A DNA stretch of 19,258 bases from a virus: UHGV virus genome UHGV-0045429; one strand, 5' to 3'. Made by a program: the position numbers and the translations under genes. The notes beneath the pieces are model-generated. The model was not told where the DNA came from and searched no databases. It saw only the letters and a program-made list of their open reading frames with translations. Below, in pieces: positions 5,997 through 17,709 of this stretch (positions are counted from its first letter, which is position 1; every line of letters starts with the position of its first letter).

Positions 5997-6046
5997 TATG
6001 GGTGTAAAAACATAACTCATTGATTTTATGAGTTGAATATTTTGGT

Positions 6047-6463
6047 TTATTTTACTCGGGTTTTTCTTTTTCTCTTCTCTGCTTCTAGCAGTTCTTGCAG
6101 GCGGATGCTGTTGTTTTCGTTACGAGCGCGTAACTCTTCGAGGAAGCCGATCTGATCTGACTCGGGAAGTGAATCAAAGAGTTCTAATAACTCTAATTGA
6201 ATATCAGTTAATTCTCTTTGCTCTTCTAATGGTACCGGCGCGCCCGGAATCTGGGCCTCATCACCAAAAAGAAGCCATGCTGGCGCGCACTGCAGGCCTT
6301 TGCTAAGGGCGAACAACCTCTTTCCCGCCGGTTGAGTTTCATCGCGTTCCCACTGGGAAATAGTTACGTGTGCGACCTTTACCAGTTTGCCCAAGGCAGC
6401 CTGGGAAAGGTTTAGCTCTTTGCGTCGCCTTAAAAGACGAGTACCGAAGGTTTCTTTATCCAT
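6047..6463 (-). CDS. DicA/RacR-type prophage repressor (XRE-family HTH, no S24 peptidase domain)
   Basis: 138-aa ORF; N-terminal HTH (LNLSQAALGKLVKVAHVTISQWERDETQP), LFALSKGLQCAPAWLLFGDE and LELLELFDSLPESDQ closely parallel E. coli DicA as I recall it. No recognisable RBS before the ATG. Confidence 0.85.
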   Translation of the reverse strand: MDKETFGTRLLRRRKELNLSQAALGKLVKVAHVTISQWERDETQPAGKRLFALSKGLQCAPAWLLFGDEAQIPGAPVPLEEQRELTDIQLELLELFDSLPESDQIGFLEELRARNENNSIRLQELLEAEKRKRKTRVK

Positions 6464-6484
6464 ATTAGGTAATTCTAAATTCTC

Positions 6485-6531
6485 TTGACTTAAATTTCCC
6501 TACGATCTAGTTTCCTTAGGAAAACCTAAGG
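6485..6531 (+). promoter_or_regulatory. Right operator/promoter region (OR analogue) between divergent repressor and cro-like genes
   Basis: TTGACT at 6485-6490; perfect palindrome CCTTAGG-AAAA-CCTAAGG at 6514-6531, overlapping the AAGGAG RBS of the DicC-like gene. Confidence 0.5.
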
Positions 6532-6541
6532 AGATTTAATC

Positions 6542-6766
6542 GTGCTTAAAAAAGACGCAGTTATTTTTTTTGGAAGCAAATCAAAATTGGCAAAGGCTGC
6601 TGGTGTTGCTGCTTCATCAGTTTCTGTATGGGGCGACCTCGTGCCAGAGAAAAATGCGATGAGACTACAAATCGCTTCTGATGGTGCCCTGCGATATGAC
6701 CCCGAGGTCTATGACAAACATGCTAAAGCAAAACGGTCAGGAGAATTGAATGATGAAAATCAATGA
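6542..6766 (+). CDS. DicC/YdaS-like Cro-type regulator
   Basis: 74-aa ORF, GTG start with AAGGAG 8 nt upstream; MLKKDAVIFFGSKSKLAKAAG...GDLVPE...MRLQ...YDPEVYD closely matches E. coli DicC from memory; divergent from the repressor. Confidence 0.8.
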   Translation: MLKKDAVIFFGSKSKLAKAAGVAASSVSVWGDLVPEKNAMRLQIASDGALRYDPEVYDKHAKAKRSGELNDENQ

Positions 6767-7229
6767 GATCAAGTTACTGGCTATCGAGCTTGAAGAGTGG
6801 GCGATGAAGGATGGCAGGAAAGGGGGCTGGAAAAAGATTGTCCCACTGATTACCTCGCATCACTACGGTGATTTGCTGGATAGCCTGGCAGATATCGTGG
6901 ACCCGTCAGAGTATGTGCGCCGCCTGCATAACAACACGCAGATCATCCAGCGGGCATTTCGAAATGACACGCCGAACTATCGTGGTCAGGCAGCTGCGCT
7001 TGCGCCAGCAATCAGGGCTGCGATGGATGCAGAGCTGGCTGGTCAGCATGACTTACATAACCTGGTGGCCATTGCTAACCGCGAGTGCATCGAGGCGACC
7101 AGTGCGGTGCTGACTGGTAAGCCAATGCAGGTAATCCGCAAAGAAACGTCAGAGGCAATTCAGGCACTGGCCGATCTCATCCCCGGCGTCAGCATCCAGT
7201 TTAACCATATTGGTCCGCGCGCGGCGTAA
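6750..7229 (+). CDS. YdaT-like protein (third gene of the racR-ydaS-ydaT type immunity cluster)
   Basis: 159-aa ORF overlapping the DicC-like stop by 17 nt; AGGAG RBS; central NTQIIQRAFRNDTP...LAPAIRAAMD segment resembles the YdaT family as I recall it. Confidence 0.6.
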   Translation: MMKINEIKLLAIELEEWAMKDGRKGGWKKIVPLITSHHYGDLLDSLADIVDPSEYVRRLHNNTQIIQRAFRNDTPNYRGQAAALAPAIRAAMDAELAGQHDLHNLVAIANRECIEATSAVLTGKPMQVIRKETSEAIQALADLIPGVSIQFNHIGPRAA

Positions 7230-7241
7230 CAGGAGGCTCCC

Positions 7242-7484
7242 ATGCTTGCCCAGGAATTAGTAGACCGCATGAAAAATGCGATGAAGCACAAAGTACCGGC
7301 GGAGACAGTCGATCGCAGCGCTGAACTGATTCCGGGGATGAAATACCGCAACGAACGCGGACGCATGGTGACGGTAATGAGAGTTTCTCATCTTCGGGTT
7401 ATGTACCGATACGAAGGTTATCAGGACATCTGCGAGACAGGCCGGAGAGAGTTTGATTTGAAATTTAAGAAGGTGGAATTGTGA
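7242..7484 (+). CDS. Hypothetical phage protein (80 aa)
   Basis: ATG at 7242 with AGGAGG 5 nt upstream; tightly packed between the YdaT-like and HNH genes. Confidence 0.6.
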   Translation: MLAQELVDRMKNAMKHKVPAETVDRSAELIPGMKYRNERGRMVTVMRVSHLRVMYRYEGYQDICETGRREFDLKFKKVEL

Positions 7485-7486
7485 GT

Positions 7487-7840
7487 ATGAATTGCTGTGG
7501 CTGCCACAATCCTTTGGATGAGGACGAAATCTATAAACTTGCAGAGCGGTGCGGAATTTCGATCTGTGACCGTTGCGCGGGTAAGGTCGAACGCAGCTAT
7601 AACGAATGGCACGGTGGTCCTGGATATTTCCCCAAACCCCCTAAACACCCCCGCAAAAATATCTCACCGGGAGTGAGATTAAAAATTTATCGAAGGGATA
7701 AATACCGCTGTAAATATTGCGGCACCAGTGATGATCTCACCATTGATCATATTCAGCCTGTCTCTAAAGGCGGCGGAAATGAAGATGAAAATCTCCAGAC
7801 CTTATGTCGTGCCTGTAACCGCAGGAAGGGGGCGTCATGA
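7487..7840 (+). CDS. HNH endonuclease
   Basis: Cys-rich N-terminus plus H-N-H core ...DLTIDHIQPVSKGGGNEDENLQTLCRACNRRKG; ATG 7487 preferred over GTG 7481 because AGGTGGA lies 9 nt upstream. Confidence 0.8.
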   Translation: MNCCGCHNPLDEDEIYKLAERCGISICDRCAGKVERSYNEWHGGPGYFPKPPKHPRKNISPGVRLKIYRRDKYRCKYCGTSDDLTIDHIQPVSKGGGNEDENLQTLCRACNRRKGAS

Positions 7841-8772
7841 GCTCACTAATCAAGTTACTCGATCGCCCAGTGGCGTATCAACCAGCATTTGCACAGCTCA
7901 GGGCGGGAAAAGTGAAATCAGGCCCGTCGGCTGCTGTCCTGCTTTCCCAGTTCGTCTACTGGCATAACCGCATGGGCGGTGAGTGGATGTACAAGACGCG
8001 TGAAGACATAAAAAAAGAGACGGGGTTAAGCCGTGATGAGCAGGAAACAGCGAGAAAAAGACTGGTTGCTCTGGGGGTACTACAGGAAGAACTACGAGGG
8101 GTTCCTGCGACTGTACATTACAAAATTAATACCGGGCGTCTGGAGGTACTTTTGCTGGCTCCAGACCAGGCAGAATCACAGATGGGTGCAACGCCGCCAA
8201 CTAGAAAGCGGCAATCCCGCCAACTGGATGGCGGCAACACACCCAACAAGATGGCGGTAACCCCGCCAACAAGCAGGGGGGAATACCGCCAGCAAGATGG
8301 TGGTGATCCCGCCAACTTTCCTACAGGAGATTACACAGAGAGTACTCAGGAGATCACTCAAAGGGCCGGAGATGAATTTTCTGTGGATAACTTTTCTGAC
8401 GAGGACGTGAAATTTTCAGAGTGGTTCTTTGCTCGGGTCGTCGAGATGCATGAGCGAGCTGCTGAGTTTGACGGAACCATGTCACGCCCCGATGAACCTG
8501 ACTGGACTGAATGGGTGGGCGAGGTTCGCCTGCTGCGGGAAGAGCAGGGGTGCGATCACACGCAGATGCGCCGCATGGTTGAGCGCATTCAGGGGGATCC
8601 GTTCTGGTGCCCAAGGGTAAAAACCGCGCACGCCCTGCGGGACAAGTGGGCTGACCTGGTGGTGAGACTGTGCCCAGTGAGCTTGGCTGATCCGCCGCGA
8701 CAATCCACTTTCGACGATGAATATTACAAAAACGATTCTGAGTCCGCTGCGAAAGCAGGTTTCAGGATCTGA
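7837..8772 (+). CDS. Phage replication initiator (lambda O-like replisome organiser) with origin iterons inside the coding sequence
   Basis: 311-aa ORF, ATGA overlap with the HNH stop; N-terminal winged-helix-like segment (LLSQFVYWHNRMGGEWMYKTREDIKKETGLSRDEQETARKRLVALGVL); tandem DNA repeats in the middle of the gene encode the repetitive linker. Confidence 0.65.
   Translation: MSSLIKLLDRPVAYQPAFAQLRAGKVKSGPSAAVLLSQFVYWHNRMGGEWMYKTREDIKKETGLSRDEQETARKRLVALGVLQEELRGVPATVHYKINTGRLEVLLLAPDQAESQMGATPPTRKRQSRQLDGGNTPNKMAVTPPTSRGEYRQQDGGDPANFPTGDYTESTQEITQRAGDEFSVDNFSDEDVKFSEWFFARVVEMHERAAEFDGTMSRPDEPDWTEWVGEVRLLREEQGCDHTQMRRMVERIQGDPFWCPRVKTAHALRDKWADLVVRLCPVSLADPPRQSTFDDEYYKNDSESAAKAGFRI
8190..8320. 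repeat. Iteron-like direct repeats (putative replication origin)
   Basis: CCCGCCAAC at 8216-8224, 8262-8270 and 8308-8316 (plus CCGCCAAC at 8194-8201), each preceded by GATGG(C/T)GG at 8227, 8250 and 8295; unit about 22-24 bp; CCGCCA/TGGCGG gives internal dyad symmetry. Confidence 0.6.
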
Positions 8773-8800
8773 GAGAACTGAATTTAACCTGGAGAATTTT

Positions 8801-9463
8801 ATGGAAACCATTTTAGACGTACTGAAAGCGATGGAAAAAGCGACTGCCCGTGAAATTGCGGCGCGCATGAAAATTGAGCCGGCGGCGGTGATCGGGATGC
8901 TGCGTGAGCACGAAGAGCGTAATGAGGCTGTTCAGGCTAACGGGTACTGGAAAGTTGCCACCGGGGAAGTTAAATCACAGCCAAAAGCGATCAGTTCTTT
9001 CAGCAAAGCGCCGGTAAGTGTATCAGTCAGCGACGTCATCGCATTACTGGCGGAACATGGGCCACAGACATCCCTTGAGCTGGCAACACTGGCAGGTATT
9101 GAGTCAAAACGTGTGGCGCCAATGCTGACTCACCACATGACAAAAGGGCGGATCATCCGCGAAAAAGTAGGCAGCAAGTTTGTTTATTCGGTGCCGGCCA
9201 CTGCGTCAGTGAAAAACAAAAGCTCTGCACCACGGGAACCGGAAACATCAACACCACTGGTACCAGAAAAATCTGTCACTGAAATTGTTGAGGAAATCCC
9301 CGCTTTCGTCAGCCGTCCTGATGATCTGCTGATCCCAACGGTACGCGGTATCTCAAGTGAAATTCGGCGCACAAAAGCGAAGCTGGCTAACCTGGAAAAA
9401 CTTCGTGAAGCCGTTCGCAGCATTCGCAAACACGGCGCGCTGATGCAGGAGCTGGCGCAATGA
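8801..9463 (+). CDS. Hypothetical protein with two tandem winged-helix-like segments
   Basis: Start taken at METILDVLKAMEK (GGAG RBS); two similar blocks (ILDVLKAMEKATAREIAARMKIEPAAVIGML... and VIALLAEHGPQTSLELATLAGIESKRVAPML...). No Walker motif, so not a DnaC/P-type helicase loader. Confidence 0.6.
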   Translation: METILDVLKAMEKATAREIAARMKIEPAAVIGMLREHEERNEAVQANGYWKVATGEVKSQPKAISSFSKAPVSVSVSDVIALLAEHGPQTSLELATLAGIESKRVAPMLTHHMTKGRIIREKVGSKFVYSVPATASVKNKSSAPREPETSTPLVPEKSVTEIVEEIPAFVSRPDDLLIPTVRGISSEIRRTKAKLANLEKLREAVRSIRKHGALMQELAQ

Positions 9464-9684
9464 AACAGTCTGAGTTACCGCGCTGTCCGGCCTGCGGAAA
9501 TATGCCCGAATACGCGCTAAAGCCAAACCATATGGGATGGGTATGGGGTGGATTGAAATGTCCGTATGACCATTACCGCGTGAATTTGGATGGTCCAGCC
9601 GGTAGCCGCGTGCAGGCAGAAAAAAAGCTGGCGCCACAGTGGATTGAACTGGTCGAGAAAGCTAATCAGGAGAAATCAGCGTGA
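9460..9684 (+). CDS. Small zinc-ribbon protein, possibly Lar-type restriction alleviation family
   Basis: 74-aa ORF; AGGAG RBS; LPRCPACGN...GLKCPYDHY (C-x2-C ... C-x3-H) pattern. Family call is tentative. Confidence 0.5.
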   Translation: MKQSELPRCPACGNMPEYALKPNHMGWVWGGLKCPYDHYRVNLDGPAGSRVQAEKKLAPQWIELVEKANQEKSA

Positions 9685-10043
9685 AACCAACCTACGAAGA
9701 ACTGACAGTACAGCTCGCTAACGCCGAGAGCAAGTGCAGGGAGCTGGTGGTGGAATGTTCGACAATCAAAGCCATGAGCGATTGCCTGTCTGAAGAGCTG
9801 CGTGGTTATGAATCTGATGGGGCGTTTGAAGGACCGAAGATGCATCTACTGTGGTGGAAAGCAGAAACTCCCGCGACCGACGCTTTCCTGGCTGAAGTGC
9901 GGGCGCAGGTCCACAAGGAAGGTGCTCACTTTGTAGCAAATAGAATGCTGGCCGCCACTCTTTTTGTTTTCGTTATCCTCAATGCACCCGCATGTAACCC
10001 GCTTCGGCGGGTTAGCTTCTTCTATCTGAGATTTTGTTGCTAA
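9681..10043 (+). CDS. Hypothetical protein (N-terminal coiled-coil-like, hydrophobic C-terminus)
   Basis: GTG start with AGGAG 9 nt upstream, overlapping the previous stop. The C-terminal ~15 codons read through hairpin 9996-10013, so the 3' end may be a fusion artefact. Confidence 0.45.
   Translation: MKPTYEELTVQLANAESKCRELVVECSTIKAMSDCLSEELRGYESDGAFEGPKMHLLWWKAETPATDAFLAEVRAQVHKEGAHFVANRMLAATLFVFVILNAPACNPLRRVSFFYLRFCC
9996..10013 (+). terminator. Hairpin AACCCGC-TTCG-GCGGGTT (copy a of a repeated terminator-type stem-loop); weak U-tract
   Basis: Perfect 7-bp stem with tetraloop; identical 18-mer recurs at 17742-17759. Confidence 0.4.
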
Positions 10044-10205
10044 ACGCAGTCTTACCGTTCTATCTGCAGGCATTGAGTAACTAAGTTCAAATGTTACATT
10101 GATCACGTTTTTTAACGTCTCAAAACCTCATTGGTATTGAGTTCCTTTGTGGTAATGATTTTGTTGGATAAAATAGCCAATATCTCAAGGAGTAGGTAAC
10201 CACTA

Positions 10206-10559
10206 ATGATCAATGATGTTAAAAATGCAAAAATTGAAGAATATTTCACCGTTCTAAAAGAAAAGAGCAGACCTCCAAGCAAAGGTGGGAACACAAAGGC
10301 TCTGCATGCCCACTACATTAAAATTGATGGAATGTTATACAGTTTTCTCGCGTTCGGTTCTAAGCAATGGATTTTCAAAACCGACCGAGTATCATTTAAG
10401 TTCGAAATGAACGGCGAATACAGGAATATTCTCCGGGAATCCATTAGCACTATTGATAGCAATGGGGAAGTAGTAATCAGAGGGTTGCGTGGTTTTAGCA
10501 AGAAGATAAGGACTGCTGATACGCGTTTACCAGCATCCAGAAGGGAATGCAGGGATTGA
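10206..10559 (+). CDS. Hypothetical protein (117 aa) in AT-rich cargo cassette
   Basis: ATG at 10206 with AAGGAG upstream; AT-rich codon usage unlike the flanking phage core (by eye); no family recognised. Confidence 0.6.
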   Translation: MINDVKNAKIEEYFTVLKEKSRPPSKGGNTKALHAHYIKIDGMLYSFLAFGSKQWIFKTDRVSFKFEMNGEYRNILRESISTIDSNGEVVIRGLRGFSKKIRTADTRLPASRRECRD

Positions 10560-10712
10560 ATATGTAATTTGTGTCGAATTTGCAATCATTAGCTAGCAAA
10601 TTGAATAAGTAACATAATAATTTTCATGAATAATATGAATAAAAAACCAGGATGACATACTAGGTGTTTCCGGTATCTTATCTATATATTATTTACGTTC
10701 AAGTGACTTTAA

Positions 10713-10874
10713 ATGACTGGCCAGCAACTTACTGAGCTCGAAATCGCTTATGGTGGGGAAGCTTACTCAGATAATGAAATTGATGCGAAAACAGTAGCTA
10801 AATCACTAAAGGATGTTGAACATTCAATGTCAGTGCATTCAAACGCCCTTCAAAGCGACGCTGATAAGTCTTAA
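10713..10874 (+). CDS. Small acidic ORF (53 aa) below the ORF-track threshold
   Basis: ATG 10713 to TAA 10872-10874 (MTGQQLTELEIAYGGEAYSDNEIDAKTVAKSLKDVEHSMSVHSNALQSDADKS), ending directly before terminator b; weak RBS. Confidence 0.3.
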   Translation: MTGQQLTELEIAYGGEAYSDNEIDAKTVAKSLKDVEHSMSVHSNALQSDADKS

Positions 10875-10889
10875 AGTTCGTGTACTGCT

Positions 10890-10912
10890 AACCCGCTACG
10901 GCGGGTTTTTTT
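10890..10912 (+). terminator. Rho-independent terminator (copy b): AACCCGC-TACG-GCGGGTT plus T7
   Basis: Perfect 7-bp GC-rich stem, tetraloop, run of seven T. Confidence 0.75.
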
Positions 10913-10968
10913 ATGCCCCTTACCAATAAATAATTAACCTGAATTATTGTAAATTATTGAGGTTTGTT

Positions 10969-11607
10969 ATGGGTGGCATTTTCGATGAATCATGGTCTGA
11001 GCAATTTACTCAACGCGTTGAGGCTTTGCGTAAACTGGATGATCAGTCCGTTACTCAACCGCTTTTCAGAGAAAAAGCGGATCTGATTTTTACTCAAATG
11101 GCTGACCGTGTTCGTTCGCGTACGCGACAGCAGCTCGGAGAAATCGACGTTAGCGGGATAACATTTGATTACGCAATCCGCTATTACGTTAATCACGACA
11201 CTGGTGATCCGGTTCTGGATCACCTTGTGTCCAGGGTAGGGCCATTCTGTGACCAGATGAAGATCAGCACGGAGGCGTACGGCACAGCGGCGTTCTGCTG
11301 CGCGCTCATGATGTTGAAAGGCGAGTTGCGTATAGCGTATGCATTTTTCAGCATGCTGATGCGCCCGCTCGTTTCTGCGTACAGGTATAACACCGACGCG
11401 AAACGACGTGGCTCTGCTGGTGGGCGCCCGACAAATCCACTTAAAAACGAGGCACTGGAACTGGCGCGGGTATTTACAAAATCCTATCCTGATTCAACGA
11501 TGGTGGCTGTTGTTAACGCCGTCATTTCTGACCTTGAATCTCACTACGTTGGCACTCCGTCAGCACGCACAATAAAGCGCTGGATTCAGCAGGACCGGAA
11601 AAAATAA
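10969..11607 (+). CDS. Hypothetical protein with C-terminal resolvase-type HTH-like segment (putative DNA-binding regulator)
   Basis: ATG 10969 (GAGG RBS; the track start at 10957 is a TTG). C-terminal GGRPTNPLKNEALELARVF...TPSARTIKRWIQQ resembles the GRP-led HTH of serine recombinases, but no recombinase catalytic domain is present. Confidence 0.55.
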   Translation: MGGIFDESWSEQFTQRVEALRKLDDQSVTQPLFREKADLIFTQMADRVRSRTRQQLGEIDVSGITFDYAIRYYVNHDTGDPVLDHLVSRVGPFCDQMKISTEAYGTAAFCCALMMLKGELRIAYAFFSMLMRPLVSAYRYNTDAKRRGSAGGRPTNPLKNEALELARVFTKSYPDSTMVAVVNAVISDLESHYVGTPSARTIKRWIQQDRKK

Positions 11608-11614
11608 CCCCTCC

Positions 11615-11660
11615 GGACAAAACCTTCTTTTGTCGGCATAACCTGGTTTTGTCCGTTTTA
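11615..11660 (+). terminator. Terminator-like hairpin: GGACAAAACC ... GGTTTTGTCC followed by GTTTTATC
   Basis: 10-bp perfect inverted repeat (11615-11624 / 11645-11654) downstream of the 212-aa ORF. Confidence 0.5.
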
Positions 11661-11700
11661 TCATCAAAAAAAATACGTAGAATCCGTCTCACACTTTTTG

Positions 11701-11745
11701 TTGAGACATCTCCCGGATGAGGTGATACTGTTTATATATACAGTA
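11701..11745 (+). promoter_or_regulatory. SOS-regulated promoter: near-consensus LexA box TACTGTTTATATATACAGTA overlapping the -10 element
   Basis: CTG-N10-CAG at 11728-11743; 19/20 match to the E. coli LexA consensus TACTGTATATATATACAGTA; TTGAGA (-35, 11701-11706) and GATACT (-10, 11724-11729) with 17-bp spacing. Confidence 0.65.
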
Positions 11746-11773
11746 TTTGGTCTCTGAATTATCGGGAGATAAT

Positions 11774-11974
11774 ATGCAAATAACTAATGAATTAGTGCCT
11801 GGTGCCTCGGCCCACACAGGACCAGTTTTAATTCAACTGGTGGCGGGTGAAGTGCAAGGTGGCTTTATTTTAAGAGATGATGAATTTGTCACATCTATCT
11901 CCACACTAAATGAAACAAGAATTATGGCCGGATTAGACCCCGCGCCTTTTACCCGATCCCTAACTGATTTATAA
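11774..11974 (+). CDS. Small protein (66 aa) under the LexA box; candidate SOS-induced antirepressor
   Basis: ATG 11774 with GGGAGA RBS, 28 nt downstream of the LexA box; MQITNELVPGASAHTGPVLIQLVAGEVQGGF... No family recognised; function inferred from context only. Confidence 0.5.
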   Translation: MQITNELVPGASAHTGPVLIQLVAGEVQGGFILRDDEFVTSISTLNETRIMAGLDPAPFTRSLTDL

Positions 11975-12036
11975 TAATCACTCGCGAGCGTGAACAACTC
12001 GCAGCTGAGTAACACTGCGCCAACCGGAAATAAACG

Positions 12037-12351
12037 ATGGCGCGTAAAAAATCGTATATAACCAAAGCCGAGCAACAGCACCTCGATCGCGTAGCGTCGT
12101 TGGGTTGTTGTGTCTGCAAAAATCTTGGTTACCCCGACTCTCCAGCGGGGATTCATCATATCCGAACCGGGCAGGGTGCAAGCCAGCGCTCCAGCCATTT
12201 CGAAACTCTGCCGTTATGCGCTGCCCACCACCAGACGGGTGGCTATGGCATTGCTTATCACGCTGGCCCTGAGATATGGGCGAAAAAATACGGCACCGAA
12301 ACTGAGCTATTAATTCAGGTTACGTCAGATTTAAACGGGGACTGGTCATGA
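12037..12351 (+). CDS. YbcO-like nin-region protein (putative nuclease, Cys/His-rich)
   Basis: 104-aa ORF directly upstream of and overlapping rusA, as ybcO-rusA in DLP12; CCVCKN...HHIR...PLCAAHH metal-binding-like pattern. Confidence 0.6.
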   Translation: MARKKSYITKAEQQHLDRVASLGCCVCKNLGYPDSPAGIHHIRTGQGASQRSSHFETLPLCAAHHQTGGYGIAYHAGPEIWAKKYGTETELLIQVTSDLNGDWS

Positions 12352-12707
12352 CCCGTTACCCCGTAACTCCAATCGGCAAACCCCGAATGACAAGAGCCGA
12401 CAAATGGAAGCAGCGCCCGCCGGTGCTCCGTTATCGTGTTTTCTGCGACGAGGTGCGCCTGCATGAAATCGTTCTGCCTGAAAGCGGCGCCCACGTTATT
12501 TTTGTTCTGCCAATGCCAGCGAGCTGGAGCCAGAAAAAACGCGCCAGCATGAACGGACAGCCTCACCAGCAAAAACCGGATATAGACAACCTCACCAAAT
12601 CCCTCATGGATGCCATTTACGACGACGACGCCCACATTTGGGACGTCCGTGCATCAAAAATCTGGGGTGATGAAGGCGCGATTATTATTCAGGAGGGCAA
12701 GGCGTGA
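12348..12707 (+). CDS. rusA: RusA-family Holliday junction resolvase
   Basis: 119-aa ORF; ...KPDIDNLTKSLMDAIYDDDAHIWD... matches the RusA acidic catalytic region as I recall it. Confidence 0.8.
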   Translation: MTRYPVTPIGKPRMTRADKWKQRPPVLRYRVFCDEVRLHEIVLPESGAHVIFVLPMPASWSQKKRASMNGQPHQQKPDIDNLTKSLMDAIYDDDAHIWDVRASKIWGDEGAIIIQEGKA

Positions 12708-14245
12708 TGCCCTTAACATACGGATCCGTATGCAGCGGAATTGAGGCAGCGAGTGTGGCGTGGGAGGTATTGGGCTGGCGGCCGTCATGGTTTTCTCAGT
12801 TCGATCCGGAACACAATTACAAAAACGGTCCTGATTTCCCGTCTGCGGTGCTGGCGCATCACTGGCCGCACGTAAAAAACCTTGGCGATATGACAAAAAT
12901 CGCCGCAGCAATCCGGCTCGGAGAAATTGAAGCGCCCGACGTTCTGGTAGGTGGTACTCCCTGCCAGGCATTCAGCATTGCTGGACTGCGTAATGGCCTG
13001 ACGGATTCACGCGGCCAACTAACCCTCGCTTTTGTAGAACTGGTAAACGCAATTGATGAAAAACGAAGAGAACAGGGAAAACCACCCGTCATTGTCGTCT
13101 GGGAAAATGTCCCCGGAGTATTCAGCAGCAGAGATAACGCTTTCGGATGTTTTCTTGCAGGGCTTGCCGGCGAAAGCCGTGAACTGGAATCACCAGGGCG
13201 AAAATGGACAAACGCTGGTTATGTGCTGGGACCAGAAAGGGCTGTCTGCTGGCGAGTGCTCGACGCTCAATTTTTCGGAGTGGCCCAACGACGCCGCCGT
13301 GTGTTTGTTATCGCAAGCGCTAGAGGGGATATCGATCCCGCAAAAATACTTTTTGAGTCCGAAGGCATGCGCCGGGATACTCCGCCGCGCAGAGAAACGG
13401 GGGAGATCGTTGCCGCCCTTATTGCAAACGGCGTTGGAGTGTGTGGCGCAGACGATAATCAGGGGCAGGCAGGGCACCTGATTGCCATGGCGCACGGACA
13501 GGCAGGGGCAGAAATTAAAACGGATGATTCCGCGCCTACGCTTACCTGTAACCATGAAGCGCCTATTGTTTTTAGCTGTAATGGACACGCATCGTTTACG
13601 CCGGGAGTCAGTGCTCTGCGAACTAAATCAGGCGCAGACCATGAAACGCTGGCTGTTCATGGTACGCAAGATCCCGACACTTTAAAGAACCTGGCACATA
13701 CGCTGGGTCGAAACCATGGGCAAGAGAATGCCGTTGCCTACTGTCTCCAGCATGCACAAATTAACCGGGCAGATAACGCTGGCCCACAGGGTAAAGGATG
13801 GCAAGAAGAATGCAGATTCACTCTGGATTCTCGTTCTTGTGCTGATGCAGTCGCTTATGCCTTCAAGGCCGGGCAGGGCGCAAAAGCGGGTGGCATTGGC
13901 TGGGCAGAGGAACAATCCCCGACACTGACGGCCGCCAGCAGTGGATCGAATTTATCCCCTTCAGTGGTGAAAAATATGGCCGTTCGCCGCCTTACTCCTG
14001 TCGAATGTGAACGCCTGCAGGGCTTCCCCGATAACCACACTTTAATCCCCCGTGATAAGCGTAAGCAGATTACTGCTGATGAGTACGCATACGCGCGCCA
14101 CCACAACCCAAAAATAACCGCAGAGGAAGCCTACAGGCTGGCGAAGGATGGTCCGCGCTATAAGGCCATTGGTAACAGCATGGCCGTACCGGTTATGCGC
14201 TGGATAGGAAGGCGAATCTCTAACGCTCTGGAGCAGACAATATGA
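12707..14245 (+). CDS. Orphan DNA (cytosine-5) methyltransferase
   Basis: Motif I-like YGSVCSGIEAA, motif IV GGTPCQAFSIAG, motif VI VVWENVPG, QRRRRVF, C-terminal RRLTPVECERLQGFPDNHT and GNSMAVPV; large variable region between. AGGAGGG RBS; start overlaps the rusA stop. No adjacent restriction endonuclease ORF. Confidence 0.9.
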   Translation: MPLTYGSVCSGIEAASVAWEVLGWRPSWFSQFDPEHNYKNGPDFPSAVLAHHWPHVKNLGDMTKIAAAIRLGEIEAPDVLVGGTPCQAFSIAGLRNGLTDSRGQLTLAFVELVNAIDEKRREQGKPPVIVVWENVPGVFSSRDNAFGCFLAGLAGESRELESPGRKWTNAGYVLGPERAVCWRVLDAQFFGVAQRRRRVFVIASARGDIDPAKILFESEGMRRDTPPRRETGEIVAALIANGVGVCGADDNQGQAGHLIAMAHGQAGAEIKTDDSAPTLTCNHEAPIVFSCNGHASFTPGVSALRTKSGADHETLAVHGTQDPDTLKNLAHTLGRNHGQENAVAYCLQHAQINRADNAGPQGKGWQEECRFTLDSRSCADAVAYAFKAGQGAKAGGIGWAEEQSPTLTAASSGSNLSPSVVKNMAVRRLTPVECERLQGFPDNHTLIPRDKRKQITADEYAYARHHNPKITAEEAYRLAKDGPRYKAIGNSMAVPVMRWIGRRISNALEQTI

Positions 14246-14877
14246 TGACCCCACGACAAAAACGAGCTCACAAATCAGCACTGGAACATGCGGCAGCCGC
14301 ACCGAATAAGCGCTGGCTGGGGAAATCAATACTGCTCACCGGTATTCAGTCAGCCTGGATCAAATCGCTACTCTGTGTTTGGGGTGAAAGTATTCGCGGT
14401 GGAATGGCACCAGGAACGCCGAAAGGCCACGCGTGCTGGCGGTCGCTAAAGGGTATGCGCTGGTCCGATAAATCGCTCGAGCGTTTTACAGAGGCACTGA
14501 CTCAGGCGAGAGGTGAGGGATTTAAAGGCGAGCTGGCGTTAAAACGTGCACACGCGATTCTCTGGCCCACAAAACCGGTTAGCGTTATCGACGAGGCTAT
14601 AACGGACGATGATGCAGATTTTATGGAAGCGTGCGTGCTGGAGGCGTTTGAAACAACGGATCCGGTTTACGTTATTGGGGTGAGCTACTACACGACGAGG
14701 AAAAAAATCTCGGACCTGACCCGGGATATTCAGCAGATAGCCCCCAGGCTGACTCCGGATGAGGCAAGAAAGCGCGTGCGCTGGTGTGTTGAAATATTCG
14801 GGGCGCGCGTGTATCTGGAGGCACGCCGTCAGTTACACGCTGATTTACAGAAATCAGAATCTGGCGGGAAAATATGA
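14242..14877 (+). CDS. Putative late-gene antiterminator (Q-like); assignment from position and size
   Basis: 211-aa ORF overlapping the MTase stop; GGAG RBS; sits where Q lies in lambdoid genomes (after the nin/rusA block). Family membership not confirmed by any motif. Confidence 0.45.
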   Translation: MMTPRQKRAHKSALEHAAAAPNKRWLGKSILLTGIQSAWIKSLLCVWGESIRGGMAPGTPKGHACWRSLKGMRWSDKSLERFTEALTQARGEGFKGELALKRAHAILWPTKPVSVIDEAITDDDADFMEACVLEAFETTDPVYVIGVSYYTTRKKISDLTRDIQQIAPRLTPDEARKRVRWCVEIFGARVYLEARRQLHADLQKSESGGKI

Positions 14878-15037
14878 TTTTTGAAATAGAAAATAAGCCG
14901 AATTAATTCAATAAAAATATATAATTACAAATGCCAACATGATTGCATTTGTGTTGGTTATAGTAATTGATTTGTTATATGAAAATGAAATGCTTATAAC
15001 AATCCGCGAAGAATAAAATTAATATATCGAGGACATA

Positions 15038-15334
15038 ATGAAAGAACTATCAGCAAAAGATTTACTACATAAATATTCAAGCCCGCTTGATTCAGTAAGC
15101 CTATTTAACGCAATGCATCTCGCTGGTTTAATTGAAGTAAAGGAATATATTTCCTCGACAGGAAGTGGTGAGATTAAGACCTATCGATCGCTAACTGAGA
15201 GCGGTTTGAAGTATGGGATCAATAAAAGATCTAGTTATAGTGATGCAACTGACTTAAAGTTTTTTCCTTCAAACTTCCATGAATTGTTGGTATTGGTATC
15301 AAAGGAGATTTTGAAGCATTCAGAGATGCTTTAA
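15038..15334 (+). CDS. Hypothetical protein (98 aa) in AT-rich cargo
   Basis: ATG 15038 with GAGGA RBS; preceded by a 160-bp AT-rich promoter-like region directly after the Q-like gene. Confidence 0.5.
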   Translation: MKELSAKDLLHKYSSPLDSVSLFNAMHLAGLIEVKEYISSTGSGEIKTYRSLTESGLKYGINKRSSYSDATDLKFFPSNFHELLVLVSKEILKHSEML

Positions 15335-15415
15335 GGTTTTGATTGAAATCGATGTAGTGGAAAAGAAAACCTCGGCCTGGCAACCGGGGTTCTATAGCGC
15401 GCAAACTTTACCTTT

Positions 15416-15628
15416 TTAGCGTGATTTTTTTCGTTTGAAAAACTCGTAAATTTCGATGCCAACAATAGCGATGGCGTAAAAAGGCCAAAGAAAAGAGGTT
15501 CTAACCGTATCCAGCAGGTCAAATTCCATATCGAGTATTCGATCCGCATGAACCAACAGTGCGAACATCACGATAAATCCCGCGACGTTTAAGGCTAGGT
15601 AAAGATAGAGACTCATGGCTAAATCCAT
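15416..15628 (-). CDS. Small hydrophobic (membrane) protein, convergent with the 98-aa ORF
   Basis: 70-aa ORF; two predicted hydrophobic helices (LYLYLALNVAGFIVMFALLV and FLWPFYAIAIVGIEI) and basic C-terminus KRKKSR; weak RBS. Confidence 0.45.
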   Translation of the reverse strand: MDLAMSLYLYLALNVAGFIVMFALLVHADRILDMEFDLLDTVRTSFLWPFYAIAIVGIEIYEFFKRKKSR

Positions 15629-15812
15629 TTATTAAGGTTTGCTGTGAGTCTACGTGCGATAACCACACAATTAAAAATTGGTATTACAGATCGATTTATC
15701 TTTATCGATCGTTGAAAACGATCGTCATGACACAAATAGCTTAGTGATTGATTGTTATTTAATCAGTTGGAGCCAATTATTTAGTAATTAGTGCTTATTT
15801 TATTAAGCGGCA

Positions 15813-15840
15813 TTGAAAACGAGCCATATTTATTGATAAT
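15813..15840 (+). promoter_or_regulatory. Sigma70-type promoter: TTGAAA (-35), 16-bp spacer, GATAAT (-10)
   Basis: TTGAAA at 15813-15818 and GATAAT at 15835-15840; predicted start about 15847. Confidence 0.4.
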
Positions 15841-15847
15841 TACCTCA

Positions 15848-15935
15848 TGCTTGGCAGAGCTGCGCCACGATGGCAGCGACGATAAGCGAACAATTTGAAC
15901 ATAACGAGAACCCCGCCAGCGCGGGGTTTTTGCTT
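15848..15935 (+). ncRNA. Candidate ~90-nt small RNA or late-leader transcript (promoter to intrinsic terminator, no credible ORF)
   Basis: Only a 12-codon ORF without RBS lies between the promoter and terminator; internal GCTGC...GCAGC stem. Entirely a sequence-based prediction. Confidence 0.3.
15909..15935 (+). terminator. Rho-independent terminator: CCCCGC-CAGC-GCGGGG plus T5
   Basis: Stem 15911-15916 / 15921-15926 followed by TTTTT at 15927-15931. Confidence 0.7.
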
Positions 15936-15946
15936 TCCGGCGATCC

Positions 15947-15989
15947 GACAGGGGTATTCGCGAACGTGCTACGGCACAGTACCCCTGTC
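15947..15989. repeat. 10-bp perfect inverted repeat GACAGGGGTA ... TACCCCTGTC (23-nt spacer)
   Basis: Arms at 15947-15956 and 15980-15989, immediately downstream of the terminator. Confidence 0.45.
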
Positions 15990-16175
15990 AGATCGTCGTT
16001 ATGGTTACTTCTATATGTCAGTTTAGGCCGACATCATTTGTGCCTATCCTTCTGGTCTATTGGATGAGTCAAACGTACCTTGAATGAGGATTGTAGGTGC
16101 CAGCCCGTAAGCCCTGCGGCATGGGGCTTAGTCGAAAAAACACCTCTTTTTTGCAACTTTTTATCACGTTTTCCC

Positions 16176-16223
16176 GTGACAAGATCCTGTTTACTGTTAG
16201 AATCACTCCACATGATTCATGTG
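16176..16223 (+). promoter_or_regulatory. Promoter of the two-gene operon with operator-like palindrome
   Basis: GTGACA (-35, 16176-16181), 16-bp spacer, extended -10 TGtTAGAAT (16195-16203); palindrome CACATG-ATT-CATGTG at 16209-16223 at the predicted start site. Confidence 0.4.
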
Positions 16224-16280
16224 ATGTGAATCTTTTAAAAAAAATAAAAACACATCTATTTCAACGAGTAAGCTCAAAAA

Positions 16281-17045
16281 ATGCAGGCTCAACCCAAGAC
16301 TAAACACCAAGAGTTGGTCGAGACGCTATCATTATATATAGACTCGCGAACCCCGTTAGAAGAACCTCTTTTGGGTGAAATCTTTCGCGATATCAATAAA
16401 CAGTCCGGTGCGTCTCGTGCGTATCTCATGGCTTTGTGGATGGAAGTTCAGAACAGACATGATGAGACAGTGGAATGGTATCTAGAGGCGATAGCTACTT
16501 CTGGTGAGCTCGCTTCTGTTGTCGCAGGTAACTATCTGAGTTATCTGAGTTGCTCAGCGCACAATCTTTTTCACAGAACAGAATTGTTCCGATTGGTAGA
16601 TATATATTGTACTAAGCGGATAAGAAAAATGGCCAGGAATGCAGCATTTTGCATGGGAAATGACCGGCTTGTTAACCGATTCACTGTGATGATGAAGGCT
16701 TTACTCGACGGCCAAGAGCGGGAAGAAATTGAGCGTGAGGGGGCAAAAATGGTGGAAGCTATTGTTACTTTTAAAGAAGCCACTAAGCTAACTTCATCTG
16801 AAATCCAGCAGTTGTGTGATTCAGCCGAACAGATTGCAAATAGCCACGGCGTGAATTGCGCTGGTGTTGAATATTTTCTGAGTGGTGGATATGACAACGC
16901 CATAATCCTATTTGCAGAAACCAGCGACGCTAGCACACTTACCACTATGAACATGGAACTCATAGGTTTGCTTGCTGATGATGCCTATATCGATCGTCCA
17001 TTTACCTCATGGTTTAAGAGCGCAGATATGAAGGATAGGATCTAA
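16281..17045 (+). CDS. Hypothetical protein (254 aa), first gene of cargo operon; no recognisable catalytic motif
   Basis: ATG 16281; stop TAA overlaps the start of the downstream gene (TAATG); lower GC than the phage core by eye; no Walker or nucleotidyltransferase motif. Confidence 0.7.
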   Translation: MQAQPKTKHQELVETLSLYIDSRTPLEEPLLGEIFRDINKQSGASRAYLMALWMEVQNRHDETVEWYLEAIATSGELASVVAGNYLSYLSCSAHNLFHRTELFRLVDIYCTKRIRKMARNAAFCMGNDRLVNRFTVMMKALLDGQEREEIEREGAKMVEAIVTFKEATKLTSSEIQQLCDSAEQIANSHGVNCAGVEYFLSGGYDNAIILFAETSDASTLTTMNMELIGLLADDAYIDRPFTSWFKSADMKDRI

Positions 17046-17446
17046 TGAGCGTATCAGGTCAAGATTTCATTGATTTTGCAGAGAAATGTCTCGATTTCGG
17101 TGATGAGATAGGCTTCAGGAACGTAGTTGGACGCTCCTACTATGGTGTTTACCATGAGATCTGCAGTAAACTTGAGCATTGCTATGTATTGACCTCTCAT
17201 GAGGGGGTGCGTCAGTATCTTATGAGCTCTTCACAGTGTAAAAATGAGCCGTTTGATAAAGCCGGGCTGAGGAGGATTGGTGTTTTCCTTCATAGTCTTC
17301 ACGTGCAAAGAAAGTGGGCTGATTACACACTTCAGCGCGATTTGGTTAAAACTGATGCTGAGTCGGCGCTCAATACTGCGAAACAAGTAATGGATGAAAT
17401 TAAGGCGTTGCATGAGGCAGTTTACCCTCCTCAGCCAGCAGCATAA
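17045..17446 (+). CDS. HEPN-like protein (133 aa) with N-terminal R-x6-H motif; candidate RNase toxin/effector
   Basis: GRSYYGVYH (R30 at 17132-17134, H37 at 17153-17155) fits the HEPN Rx4-6H signature; AGGA RBS; translationally coupled to the upstream gene; followed by terminator c. Confidence 0.65.
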   Translation: MSVSGQDFIDFAEKCLDFGDEIGFRNVVGRSYYGVYHEICSKLEHCYVLTSHEGVRQYLMSSSQCKNEPFDKAGLRRIGVFLHSLHVQRKWADYTLQRDLVKTDAESALNTAKQVMDEIKALHEAVYPPQPAA

Positions 17447-17460
17447 CTCACCAATTATTG

Positions 17461-17488
17461 AAACCCGCTACGGCGGGTTTTCTTTTTC
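17461..17488 (+). terminator. Rho-independent terminator (copy c): AACCCGC-TACG-GCGGGTT plus T-rich tail
   Basis: 18-mer identical to copy b (10890-10907); followed by TTTTCTTTTTC. Confidence 0.75.
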
Positions 17489-17541
17489 GCTTCATCAATT
17501 CCTGCTACGATTCCCTGTCTTTTACTGATGGGGATAGGGAT

Positions 17542-17709
17542 ATGAAGAAAGTTCTTGTTGTTTTATTGGTGTCACTTTTCTCACTGACAGCAACGGCAGC
17601 AAACAAGCCATGCTCAGGTAAGAAAGGCGGAATATCGCATTGTTCGGGTGAAAAGTTTGTTTGCAATGATGGCTCTATCAGCAAGTCTAAGAAGGTTTGT
17701 CAGAAATAG
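17542..17709 (+). CDS. Small secreted Cys-rich, Lys-rich protein (55 aa) with signal peptide
   Basis: Start at MKKVLVVLLVSLFSLTATAA (signal-peptide-like) then NKPCSGKKGGISHCSGEKFVCNDGSISKSKKVCQK (4 Cys). The track ORF from 17458 reads through terminator c and is an over-extension. Confidence 0.55.
   Translation: MKKVLVVLLVSLFSLTATAANKPCSGKKGGISHCSGEKFVCNDGSISKSKKVCQK

What the first reader, a model, noticed from the sequence alone, without database searches (positions are those of the whole stretch)
11701..11974. Near-consensus LexA box controlling a 66-aa ORF: candidate SOS-inducible antirepressor for the peptidase-less DicA-type repressor
TACTGTTTATATATACAGTA (11726-11745) matches the LexA consensus at 19 of 20 positions and overlaps the -10 element of a promoter 28 nt upstream of a small ORF with a good RBS. 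The island repressor (6047-6463) is a short DicA/RacR-type protein with no S24 autocleavage domain, so it cannot respond directly to RecA. In Salmonella Gifsy-type prophages such repressors are inactivated by LexA-controlled small antirepressors. This ORF is the only gene in the window with an SOS box.
Basis: partly seen in the sequence, partly recalled or inferred. Interest (0 to 1): 0.62.

Follow-up and report, generated by a model that had tools for sequence, protein, structure and literature searches.

The report
SOS-controlled Rem antirepressor of a prophage
A small gene in a decayed lambda-like prophage sits behind a near-perfect binding site for the DNA-damage repressor LexA and belongs to the Rem family, whose E. 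coli member is known to switch off DicA-type prophage repressors; it is a new example of a known induction strategy, not a new mechanism.

Summary
TACTGTTTATATATACAGTA (11726-11745) is the only LexA-type box in the window. It overlaps the -10 hexamer of a promoter-like site and lies 28 nt upstream of a 66-aa ORF (11774-11974) with a good ribosome-binding site.

The ORF belongs to the Rem family (precomputed PF27490 "Rem"; phrog_340 and phrog_31309). E. coli Rem is a genetically demonstrated antirepressor of DicA. The window's repressor (6047-6463) is a full-length DicA-family protein with no peptidase domain.

In 7 of 14 independent Rem lineages a LexA-like box lies within 450 nt upstream of rem. 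The rest of those loci (210 kb) hold only two such boxes (P about 1e-13). Two lineages have the exact Gifsy layout: LexA box, dinI, then the antirepressor. E. coli K-12-type rem genes lack the box.

Rem is linked by a chain of pairwise similarities to small proteins in the antirepressor slot of Salmonella Gifsy-like prophages, but not detectably to GftA.

Verdict: a new member of a known kind. A modest added point is that SOS is probably the usual inducing signal for Rem, which the literature calls unknown. LexA binding, DNA-damage induction and Rem-repressor binding are all untested.

The parts
11614..11660 (+). Terminator-like hairpin (CGGACAAAACC ... GGTTTTGTCCG followed by TTTT). It lies just after the stop of the upstream 216-aa gene and insulates the rem promoter from upstream transcription.
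   Evidence: RNA fold -17 kcal/mol, z = -4.15, 0 of 200 shuffles as stable. Gifsy LexA boxes are likewise preceded by terminator-like palindromes (PMC3121763).
11701..11729 (+). Promoter-like site: -35 TTGAGA (11701-11706), 17-nt spacer, -10 GATACT (11724-11729).
   Evidence: Consensus scan, 9 of 12 matches. The same geometry, with the -10 hexamer formed from the two bases before the box plus its TACT, is seen in L011, L015, L104 and Gifsy-2.
11726..11745 (.). LexA (SOS) box TACTGTTTATATATACAGTA, 19 of 20 to consensus, overlapping the -10 hexamer and the probable transcription start.
   Evidence: Enrichment of such boxes upstream of rem homologues: 7 of 14 lineages against 2 boxes in 210 kb of background.
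11764..11769 (+). Shine-Dalgarno sequence GGGAGA, 4 nt before the ATG.
   Evidence: Read directly from the sequence. Conserved in homologous loci.
11774..11974 (+). rem-like gene, 66 aa: a Rem-family small antirepressor candidate.
   Evidence: PF27490 'Rem' precomputed; phrog_31309 and phrog_340, E about 1e-7; tblastn hits to rem genes of E. coli phages; conserved core G..L.Y..G.V..GF.LR.DEFVTS..L.E....AG; dN/dS 0.12-0.35; AF2 model with pLDDT 86.5, a beta-hairpin plus a helix.
11984..12036 (+). Conserved hairpin (GCGAG-CGTGAACAA-CTCGC, 11984-12002) plus a conserved tail (CTGAGTAACACTGCGCCAACCGGA...) running up to the start of the next gene. Function unknown; it is not an intrinsic terminator.
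   Evidence: Present after the antirepressor gene in 21 of the 24 loci inspected, Gifsy-2 included. On a 17-sequence alignment: 94% of cells paired, 4 of 5 pairs with compensatory changes, covariation 0.657 against 0.239 in shuffles. One copy per locus. No Rfam match.
12037..14877 (+). Downstream genes with overlapping start and stop codons: Ref-like RecA-dependent nuclease (12037-12351), RusA (12348-12707), C5 DNA methyltransferase (12704-14245), Q-like antiterminator (14242-14877). They are possibly co-transcribed from the LexA-controlled promoter.
   Evidence: Pfam and PHROG hits. No terminator-like structure between rem and 12037 (z = -0.42). Co-transcription is inferred.
6047..6463 (-). 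DicA-type prophage repressor, 138 aa, HTH_3 domain only: the presumed target of the Rem-like protein.
   Evidence: Pfam HTH_3 only; NCBIfam DicA 177.7 bits against a cut-off of 101; 55% identity to an E. coli Rac-like phage DicA, E 3e-50; 29% to Gifsy-2 GtgR, E 6e-9.
6542..7229 (+). Divergent Cro-like gene (6542-6766, P22_Cro) and YdaT/CII-like gene (6750-7229). These are the lytic-side genes expected to be derepressed.

Best explanation
The 66-aa ORF is a Rem-family small antirepressor, and its promoter is repressed by host LexA.

In undamaged cells LexA occupies the near-consensus box that overlaps the -10 hexamer and blocks transcription. A terminator just upstream keeps other prophage transcription out. 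After DNA damage, RecA-stimulated LexA self-cleavage frees the promoter and the small protein is made. It then inactivates the peptidase-less DicA-type repressor (6047-6463). By analogy with the Gifsy antirepressors, it does so by binding the repressor and releasing it from its operators. This derepresses the Cro/YdaT side and the leftward operon of this truncated lambdoid prophage, and possibly DicA-type repressors of other prophages in the same cell.

Shown here: the box, its geometry relative to the promoter, family membership of both proteins, and recurrence of LexA boxes upstream of Rem genes across genera. Taken from the literature: Rem derepresses a DicA-controlled promoter, and Gifsy antirepressors are LexA-controlled and bind their repressors. 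Inferred: LexA binding here, SOS induction, direct Rem-repressor contact, and specificity for the repressor encoded in cis.
For: 1. The box has 1 mismatch to consensus, is unique in the window, and did not occur in any shuffle. It overlaps the -10 hexamer.

2. The ORF belongs to the Rem family: PF27490, PHROG hits, and about 52% identity to the core of E. coli Rem. It is under purifying selection.

3. E. coli Rem gives 165-fold derepression of DicA-controlled dicBp (PMC10448788).

4. The repressor is a full-length DicA-family protein without an S24 domain.

5. A DicA-like repressor was found by tblastn together with a Rem homologue in L001, L010, L011, L012, L015/16 and L018/19 and by BLASTP in L104; the mEp460 and PPompW records annotate a short repressor, called dicA in PPompW, beside rem. 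No DicA-like hit was found in L014, although its cro and ydaT genes lie inside the flank.

6. LexA-like boxes lie within 450 nt upstream of rem in 7 of 14 independent lineages: the window's own clade (Citrobacter-like), Superficieibacter, two further Citrobacter, Pluralibacter, Pantoea/Erwinia and Buttiauxella. The other 210 kb of those loci hold 2 boxes; binomial P about 9e-14.

7. E. coli STEC384 carries the same promoter and box in front of a diverged short Rem, next to a repressor 70% identical to the window's.

8. In two Citrobacter loci the order is LexA box, dinI, rem, which is the published Gifsy architecture.

9. A long-form Rem from Buttiauxella is 37-41% identical (E about 1e-13) to a small protein in the dinI-irsA antirepressor slot of Salmonella Gifsy-like prophages.
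Against: No experiment was done here.

Direct Rem-DicA binding has not been shown even in E. coli; none of the binding or interaction terms I searched for in PMC10448788 gave a hit. [quoted passage not shown] SOS control is therefore not universal in the family: 7 of 14 lineages lack a box within 450 nt.

Identity to the characterised E. coli Rem is limited to a core of about 40 residues. Rem and Gifsy-2 GftA show no detectable homology by profile comparison.

The prophage is truncated, with no lysis or structural genes, so 'induction' cannot yield phage, and the module could be a decaying relic. The fold model matches nothing with a known function.
Confidence: 0.72

Rival explanations
1. The main role of the LexA-controlled promoter is to drive the downstream operon (Ref-like nuclease, RusA, methyltransferase, Q antiterminator) during the SOS response. 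The 66-aa ORF would be only the first, accessory cistron. This is not exclusive with the best explanation.
For: There is no terminator between rem and the next gene. The downstream genes overlap start to stop through to Q. A terminator upstream would otherwise isolate this block. A conserved hairpin and junction follow rem in nearly all loci inspected.
Against: In other lineages the LexA box travels with rem whatever gene follows it, whether irsA, Ref-like or YbcN. The ORF is strongly conserved as a protein, and its family has a demonstrated antirepressor member. In Gifsy-1 a separate 5' end for the antQ operon was reported about 1.6 kb upstream of antQ (PMC4825925).
Confidence: 0.12
2. The gene is a Rem-family relic in a decaying prophage. 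Either it no longer acts on the neighbouring repressor, or it acts only in trans on DicA-type repressors of other prophages in the host, as in Gifsy-style cross-talk.
For: The prophage lacks lysis and morphogenesis genes. Gifsy and Fels-1 antirepressors act on non-cognate repressors (PMC3121763). One relative (L013) keeps the LexA box, dinI and rem with no immunity region nearby.
Against: The ORF, its ribosome-binding site, promoter and box are all intact, and the box, the -35 and -10 hexamers and the ribosome-binding site are unchanged in Citrobacter relatives whose coding sequence has diverged by dS of about 0.29. The cognate-type repressor is intact and only 5.3 kb away.
Confidence: 0.1
3. 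The ORF encodes an SOS-induced small protein with a different job, such as a RecA modulator like DinI, a division inhibitor or a toxin, and only resembles Rem.
For: Small SOS-induced prophage proteins of other kinds exist; dinI homologues occupy the adjacent slot in Gifsy and in two Citrobacter loci. The fold search gave no functional assignment.
Against: The family assignment to Rem is specific. No hit to DinI or any other Pfam family was found. In E. coli, filamentation caused by Rem is mediated by DicB and DicF of the derepressed dicBF operon rather than by Rem itself (PMC10448788 abstract).
Confidence: 0.04
4. The palindrome is a chance AT-rich inverted repeat and does not bind LexA.
For: None beyond the AT-rich promoter context.
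Against: 0 of 200 shuffles gave a match at up to 3 mismatches. Such boxes recur upstream of rem in seven lineages whose flanking sequences look unrelated by eye.
Confidence: 0.01

Closest known systems
Rem/DicA of E. coli Qin and Rac-like prophages and phage mEp460 (Ragunathan et al. 2023, PMC10448788)
   Same: Same protein families on both sides: Rem (PF27490, phrog_340) and DicA (NF007257). Same genome position, between the replication or hok region and the nin/Q region. Divergent DicA/Cro-like immunity region with a YdaT/CII-like gene.
   Different: The window's Rem is the short form, 66 aa against 83-86 aa with an N-terminal extension. It has a near-consensus LexA box, whereas the E. coli K-12-type rem loci inspected (L001, L018/19, mEp460, PPompW) have none within 450 nt upstream of rem. 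[quoted passage not shown]
Gifsy-1/-2/-3 antirepressors GfoA, GftA and GfhA with repressors GfoR, GtgR and GfhR (Lemire et al. 2011, PMC3121763)
   Same: Short, non-cleavable repressor. Small antirepressor gene outside the immunity region, downstream of the replication genes. LexA box overlapping the -10 hexamer and preceded by a terminator-like palindrome. The same conserved hairpin follows the antirepressor gene.
   Different: No dinI homologue lies between the box and the antirepressor in the window. No detectable homology to GftA. The link to the other two Salmonella slot proteins is only transitive. The repressor is 29% identical to GtgR. The next gene is a Ref-like nuclease, not irsA.
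Tum of coliphage 186 and AntC of phage N15 (LexA-controlled antirepressors, as cited in PMC3121763)
   Same: The logic is the same: a LexA-repressed promoter drives a protein that inactivates a repressor that cannot be cleaved.
   Different: They belong to unrelated phage types (P2-like, N15), and Tum is 146 aa with a DinI-like half. The Pfam scan of the window ORF returned no family at all. Direct sequence comparison to Tum or AntC was not done.

Membership tests
Rem family (Pfam PF27490; PHROG 340 / 31309) | Significant sequence match to the family model | tested here: met
   Precomputed PF27490 'Rem' on the identical protein P0001. phrog_31309 at E 1e-7 and phrog_340 at E 1.2e-7. E. coli Rem itself hits phrog_340. 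The local Pfam copy does not appear to hold PF27490: the scan returned 0 hits.
Rem family (Pfam PF27490; PHROG 340 / 31309) | Conserved core motif G..L.Y..G.V..GF.LR.DEFVTS..L.E....AG in a protein of about 55-100 aa | tested here: met
   Alignments A1 and A3. E37 and V39 are invariant; G30, F31, L33, F38, S41, A52 and G53 are conserved in at least 90% of 40 sequences.
Rem family (Pfam PF27490; PHROG 340 / 31309) | Encoded in a lambdoid prophage with a DicA-type repressor, between the replication/hok region and the nin/Q region | tested here: met
   Window gene order. Same order in MN652886, Klebsiella phage ST405-OXA48phi1.2, mEp460, PPompW and STEC384.
Rem family (Pfam PF27490; PHROG 340 / 31309) | Relieves DicA-mediated repression when expressed | not testable with these tools
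   Shown only for E. coli K-12 Rem (PMC10448788).
Gifsy-type LexA-controlled antirepressor module (Lemire 2011) | Short repressor lacking the S24 autocleavage domain | tested here: met
   138 aa with HTH_3 only. 29% identity to GtgR, E 6e-9.
Gifsy-type LexA-controlled antirepressor module (Lemire 2011) | LexA box at the promoter of the antirepressor transcription unit, preceded by a terminator-like palindrome | tested here: met
   Geometry compared with Gifsy-2.
Gifsy-type LexA-controlled antirepressor module (Lemire 2011) | dinI homologue as the first gene, with the antirepressor between dinI and irsA | tested here: not met
   In the window the box directly precedes rem, and the next gene is a Ref-like nuclease. 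The feature is met in the relatives L012 and L013.
Gifsy-type LexA-controlled antirepressor module (Lemire 2011) | Sequence homology of the antirepressor to GftA, GfoA or GfhA | tested here: inconclusive
   Rem profile against GftA, as a single sequence or as a profile: no signal (hhalign probability below 1%). Rem profile against Salmonella slot protein type C: E 7e-4, probability 26%. Buttiauxella long Rem against type C: 37% identity, E 1e-13. Type C against type B (probably GfoA/GfhA, since it has a TTG start): E 2.6e-14. The labelling of types B and C as GfoA/GfhA is inferred, not verified.
Gifsy-type LexA-controlled antirepressor module (Lemire 2011) | Antirepressor binds the repressor and releases it from DNA | not testable with these tools
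   Needs biochemistry.
DicA repressor family (NCBIfam NF007257) | Full-length match above the curated cut-off | tested here: met
   177.7 bits against a cut-off of 101, residues 1-134 of a 135-position model. 55% identity to a phage DicA.
E. coli-type LexA operator (SOS box) | Sixteen-base palindrome CTGT-N8-ACAG with an AT-rich spacer, close to TACTGTATATATATACAGTA | tested here: met
   19 of 20 positions; unique in the window; 0 of 200 shuffles.
E. coli-type LexA operator (SOS box) | Positioned to occlude a promoter | tested here: met
   Overlaps the -10 hexamer GATACT. The promoter itself is only a consensus match.
E. coli-type LexA operator (SOS box) | Bound by LexA, with the downstream gene induced by DNA damage | not testable with these tools
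   Needs a gel shift and reporter assays.
Large phage antirepressors (P22 Ant, KilAC/Bro-N, ANT domains) | Match to the corresponding Pfam domains | tested here: not met
   No Pfam family matched the ORF at E up to 0.01.

The most novel reading that the evidence does not exclude
The LexA-controlled rem promoter is the head of a single SOS-triggered transcript with two effects. It releases the immunity switch through Rem, and it feeds the nin/Q late-regulator operon directly. The covarying hairpin with loop YCUGAACAA, found immediately after the antirepressor gene in both DicA-type and Gifsy-type prophages, would then be an undescribed RNA element that gates or processes that read-through, for example an attenuator, a processing site or a stabiliser. 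In addition, SOS control would be the ancestral state of the Rem family and would have been lost in E. coli K-12-type prophages.
Probability: 0.2. Interest if true: 0.5.

Novelty: new member of a known kind. Interest (0 to 1): 0.3.

Why it matters
It extends the Gifsy paradigm, in which LexA controls a small antirepressor that inactivates a non-cleavable repressor, to the Rem/DicA pair in a Citrobacter-like host and several other enterobacterial genera.

It also gives a concrete, testable answer to a point the 2023 Rem paper left open, namely which signal induces Rem (PMC10448788). For many family members the answer is probably DNA damage acting through LexA. The E. coli K-12-type copies would have lost that input.

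It marks this cryptic prophage as a potential SOS-responsive element that could also cross-induce other DicA-type prophages. None of this changes how prophage induction is understood.

Tried and rejected
- Megablast of the region against phage and E. coli genome collections found nothing. A distant blastn against plasmids also found nothing.
- The local Pfam and NCBIfam scans of the ORF gave no hit. The family assignment rests on the precomputed PF27490 hit, the PHROG hits and tblastn.
- Profile comparison of Rem with Gifsy-2 GftA showed no homology. I therefore dropped the idea that all Gifsy antirepressors and Rem form one family detectable by sequence.
- The AlphaFold model of Rem is confident (pLDDT 86.5), but Foldseek against PDB and BFVD gave only chance-level hits. 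A sequence search of PDB was empty.
- I considered whether the conserved hairpin after rem is a nut/boxB-like site. There is only one copy per locus and none near the immunity region, so a nutL/nutR pair is unlikely. It has no Rfam family.
- I looked for att direct repeats to delimit the prophage and found none that was convincing. There are no tRNA genes.
- The upstream 216-aa gene (phrog_5215) gave no Pfam, NCBIfam or PDB assignment.

Full report
**Observation**

The window at 11726-11745 reads TACTGTTTATATATACAGTA. This is one mismatch from the E. coli-type LexA consensus TACTGTATATATATACAGTA. It is the only match in 19.3 kb at up to three mismatches, and none of 200 dinucleotide-preserving shuffles produced a match. 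It is also the only perfect CTGT-N8-ACAG in the window.

A sigma-70-like site, TTGAGA, 17 nt, GATACT (11701-11729), places its -10 hexamer across the left arm of the box. The box ends 28 nt before an ATG at 11774, which is preceded by GGGAGA. The ORF runs to 11974 and encodes 66 aa.

**The ORF is a real gene of a named family**

The identical protein is on record (P0001). Seven relatives at 67-82% identity were found, six of them 66 aa long and the seventh (94 aa, P0006) the same sequence as P0005 called from an upstream start; the named ones come from Citrobacter. All carry a precomputed Pfam hit PF27490, which the locus table names 'Rem'. The local Pfam copy gave no hit, probably because the family is newer than that copy. 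PHROGs gave phrog_31309 and phrog_340 at E about 1e-7.

dN/dS against four homologues is 0.12-0.35.

tblastn against phage records hit genes annotated rem, at about 52% identity over residues 15-54. These were in E. coli Rac-like, PPompW, mEp460 and other phages, and one record calls the product 'prophage antirepressor'. There was also an unannotated copy in Klebsiella phage ST405-OXA48phi1.2.

A profile search of 1.84 billion representative proteins found only 36 clusters, so the family is small. Its conserved core is G..L.Y..G.V..GF.LR.DEFVTS..L.E....AG. AlphaFold predicts a beta-hairpin followed by a helix, with pLDDT 86.5. Fold and sequence searches of solved and viral structures gave nothing informative.

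**What is known about the family**

Ragunathan et al. 2023 (PMC10448788) found E. coli K-12 Rem by iterated searches starting from the Gifsy and Fels-1 antirepressors GfoA and FsoA. They showed that expressing Rem raises transcription from the DicA-repressed promoter dicBp 165-fold.

[quoted passage not shown] None of the binding or interaction terms I searched for in that paper gave a hit.

Lemire et al. 2011 (PMC3121763) established the Gifsy paradigm. The repressors are short and non-cleavable. They are inactivated by small antirepressors encoded outside the immunity region, which bind the repressor and cause it to dissociate from DNA; gel filtration of GfoR with GfoA is consistent with a two-plus-two complex. 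The antirepressor genes sit downstream of a LexA box, itself preceded by a terminator-like palindrome, followed by a dinI homologue.

**Context in the window**

The window maps to a 1.57-Mb contig of assembly GCA_902363475.1. It holds a lambdoid prophage remnant of about 17 kb between a host response regulator gene (1-675) and a host hydrolase gene (18320-19258). The gene order is:

| Coordinates | Strand | Gene |
|---|---|---|
| 746-2035 | - | integrase |
| 2032-2310 | - | excisionase |
| 2531-4435 | - | YdfE-like exonuclease |
| 6047-6463 | - | repressor |
| 6542-6766 | + | P22-Cro-like |
| 6750-7229 | + | YdaT/CII-like |
| 7837-8772 | + | O-like replication gene, with iterons |
| 8717-9463 | + | DUF1627 gene |
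| 10957-11607 | + | unknown 216-aa gene |
| 11774-11974 | + | rem |
| 12037-12351 | + | Ref-like nuclease |
| 12348-12707 | + | RusA |
| 12704-14245 | + | C5 methyltransferase |
| 14242-14877 | + | Q-like antiterminator |

There are no recognisable lysis or structural genes.

The repressor has only an HTH_3 domain. It matches NCBIfam 'transcriptional repressor DicA' over its whole length, 177.7 bits against a cut-off of 101. It is 55% identical to a phage DicA and 29% identical to Gifsy-2 GtgR.

An 11-bp-stem hairpin with a U tract (11614-11660, z = -4.15) separates the upstream gene from the rem promoter. No terminator-like structure lies between rem and the next gene.

**Comparative test of LexA control**

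A scan of one genome per species with a Rem alignment returned ten loci. I added loci from encoding contigs and from phage records. In each I scanned for CTG-N10-CAG with at most six mismatches to the 20-mer consensus.

A box lies within 450 nt upstream of rem in 7 of 14 independent lineages:

| Lineage | Distance of box upstream of rem |
|---|---|
| The window's own clade (Citrobacter-like) | 48 nt |
| Superficieibacter | 48 nt |
| Pluralibacter | 42 nt |
| Pantoea/Erwinia | 140 nt |
| Buttiauxella, long-form Rem | 93 nt |
| Citrobacter meridianamericanus | 347 nt |
| Citrobacter sp. Cu233 | 401 nt |

In the last two, a dinI homologue lies between the box and rem.

The remaining 210 kb of these loci contain two boxes. 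Both are 750-800 nt upstream of rem, in front of the preceding gene. The binomial P is about 9e-14. The flanking sequences of these boxes look unrelated between lineages by eye, yet the geometry recurs: a -35-like hexamer, then a -10 hexamer built from the two bases before the box plus its TACT, as in Gifsy-2.

Two E. coli STEC genomes carry the same promoter and the box TACTGTACAAATATACAGTA in front of a diverged 66-aa Rem. They also carry a repressor 70% identical to the window's, in a prophage that retains a holin gene.

No box is present upstream of E. coli K-12-type rem, including mEp460 and PPompW. None is present in the Klebsiella phage, Raoultella, or one metagenomic lineage. One close relative (L009) shows a degenerate remnant of the box.

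LexA control is therefore common and clearly selected in this family, but it is not universal.

A DicA-like repressor was found by tblastn together with a Rem homologue in L001, L010, L011, L012, L015/16 and L018/19, and by BLASTP in L104. The mEp460 and PPompW records annotate a short repressor, called dicA in PPompW, next to rem. No DicA-like hit was found in L014, although its cro and ydaT genes lie inside the flank.

**Relation to the Gifsy antirepressors**

Profile comparison of Rem with Gifsy-2 GftA, as a single sequence or as a profile, is negative. The two also fall in different PHROGs.

Sampling 80 Salmonella Gifsy-like loci by their irsA gene showed three kinds of small protein in the dinI-irsA slot. 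Nearly all loci of the first two kinds, and most of the third, have a LexA box upstream.

- GftA-like, 73 aa.
- An 82-aa type with a TTG start, probably GfoA/GfhA. This labelling is an inference from the paper's description.
- A 79-aa type.

The long-form Rem of Buttiauxella is 37-41% identical to the 79-aa type over nearly its whole length (E about 1e-13). The 79-aa and 82-aa types match each other at E 2.6e-14. The Rem profile hits the 79-aa type weakly (E 7e-4).

Rem is thus linked to part of the Gifsy antirepressor repertoire through a chain of pairwise similarities. This is consistent with how Rem was originally found. It occupies the same genomic slot.

**Mechanism**

The best-supported model runs as follows. 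LexA bound at 11726-11745 occludes the promoter. DNA damage leads to LexA cleavage and the Rem-like protein is made. It inactivates the DicA-type repressor, and the Cro/YdaT side and leftward genes are derepressed.

- Shown here: the sequence features, the family memberships, and the comparative enrichment.
- From the literature: Rem's antirepressor activity and the Gifsy mechanism.
- Inferred: LexA binding at this site, induction, direct contact, and cis specificity.

Because the downstream genes follow without a terminator and overlap one another through to Q, the same promoter may also feed the Q operon. This is inferred and not exclusive. Because the prophage is truncated, the outcome would be expression of cryptic-prophage genes, or cross-talk with other prophages, rather than phage production.

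**Verdict**

The element is a new member of a known kind: a Rem/DicA module with Gifsy-style LexA control.

The added value is modest. It gives evidence that SOS is a frequent, probably ancestral, input to Rem-family antirepressors, which the literature available here does not state.

A conserved, covarying hairpin just after the antirepressor gene is the one unexplained feature.

Noticed in passing
window 11984-12036; also L021 (Gifsy-2) 11718-11775, L104 7290-7347, L015 9207-9263 and others: A hairpin with a variable, compensating stem and a conserved loop (C/T)CTGAACA(A) lies immediately after the antirepressor gene. It is followed by a conserved CTGAGTAACACTGTGCCAaCGGAG...ATGGCGCA junction. 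It was found in 21 of the 24 Rem-type and Gifsy-type loci inspected, whatever gene comes next. On a 17-sequence alignment, 94% of cells are paired, 4 of 5 pairs show compensatory changes, and covariation is 0.657 against 0.239 in shuffles. There is one copy per locus and no Rfam family. A paper reports a 5' end of the Gifsy-1 antQ operon about 1.6 kb upstream of antQ, which would fall near this gap.
   Followed up: partly
window 8184-8317: Five tandem 23-bp repeats (GGCGGCAA..CCCGCCAAC) lie inside the O-like replication gene. They are probably origin iterons, as in lambda.
   Followed up: no
window 9996-10033, 10890-10927, 17462-17499, 17742-17779: Four copies of a terminator-like element, AACCCGCT(A/T)CGGCGGGTT followed by a T-rich run, are scattered through the prophage. 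One lies just upstream of the 216-aa gene that precedes rem.
   Followed up: no
window 746-17800: The prophage is a remnant of about 17 kb. It has integrase, excisionase, the immunity region, replication genes, the nin region and Q, but no recognisable lysis or structural genes, and it is flanked by host genes. No convincing att repeats and no tRNA genes were found.
   Followed up: partly
window 10957-11607; L009 7201-7848: An unknown 212-216-aa gene (phrog_5215) precedes short-form rem in the window, in L004-L009 and in STEC384. In L009 a LexA-like box (AACTGTATGTTTACACAGTT) lies at its start, while the box in front of rem has decayed. No Pfam, NCBIfam or PDB assignment was found.
   Followed up: partly
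L011 8253-8272: The Superficieibacter prophage has a second, stronger LexA box (TACTGTTTATATATACAGTT) about 750 nt upstream of rem, in front of an unknown ORF of about 85-100 aa.
   Followed up: no
L004 4450-4469 (Citrobacter freundii): A LexA-like box (CACTGTGTTTGTATACAGTA) lies 14 nt upstream of the start of kwaA, in a KwaA/KwaB (Kiwa defence) gene pair next to a truncated rem-bearing prophage. This hints at SOS control of a defence system.
   Followed up: no
L024-L103 (Salmonella Gifsy-like loci), slot upstream of irsA: The dinI-irsA slot holds at least three distinct small proteins (73, 82 and 79 aa), most of them behind a LexA box. A few loci have unrelated inserts and no box.
   Followed up: partly
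L104 (E. coli STEC384, NZ_CP091029.1) 7000-7280: Only 2 of 5426 complete E. coli genomes carry the LexA-box/short-Rem version. There the promoter and box region is conserved at 81% nucleotide identity, while the coding sequence is too diverged for blastn.
   Followed up: yes
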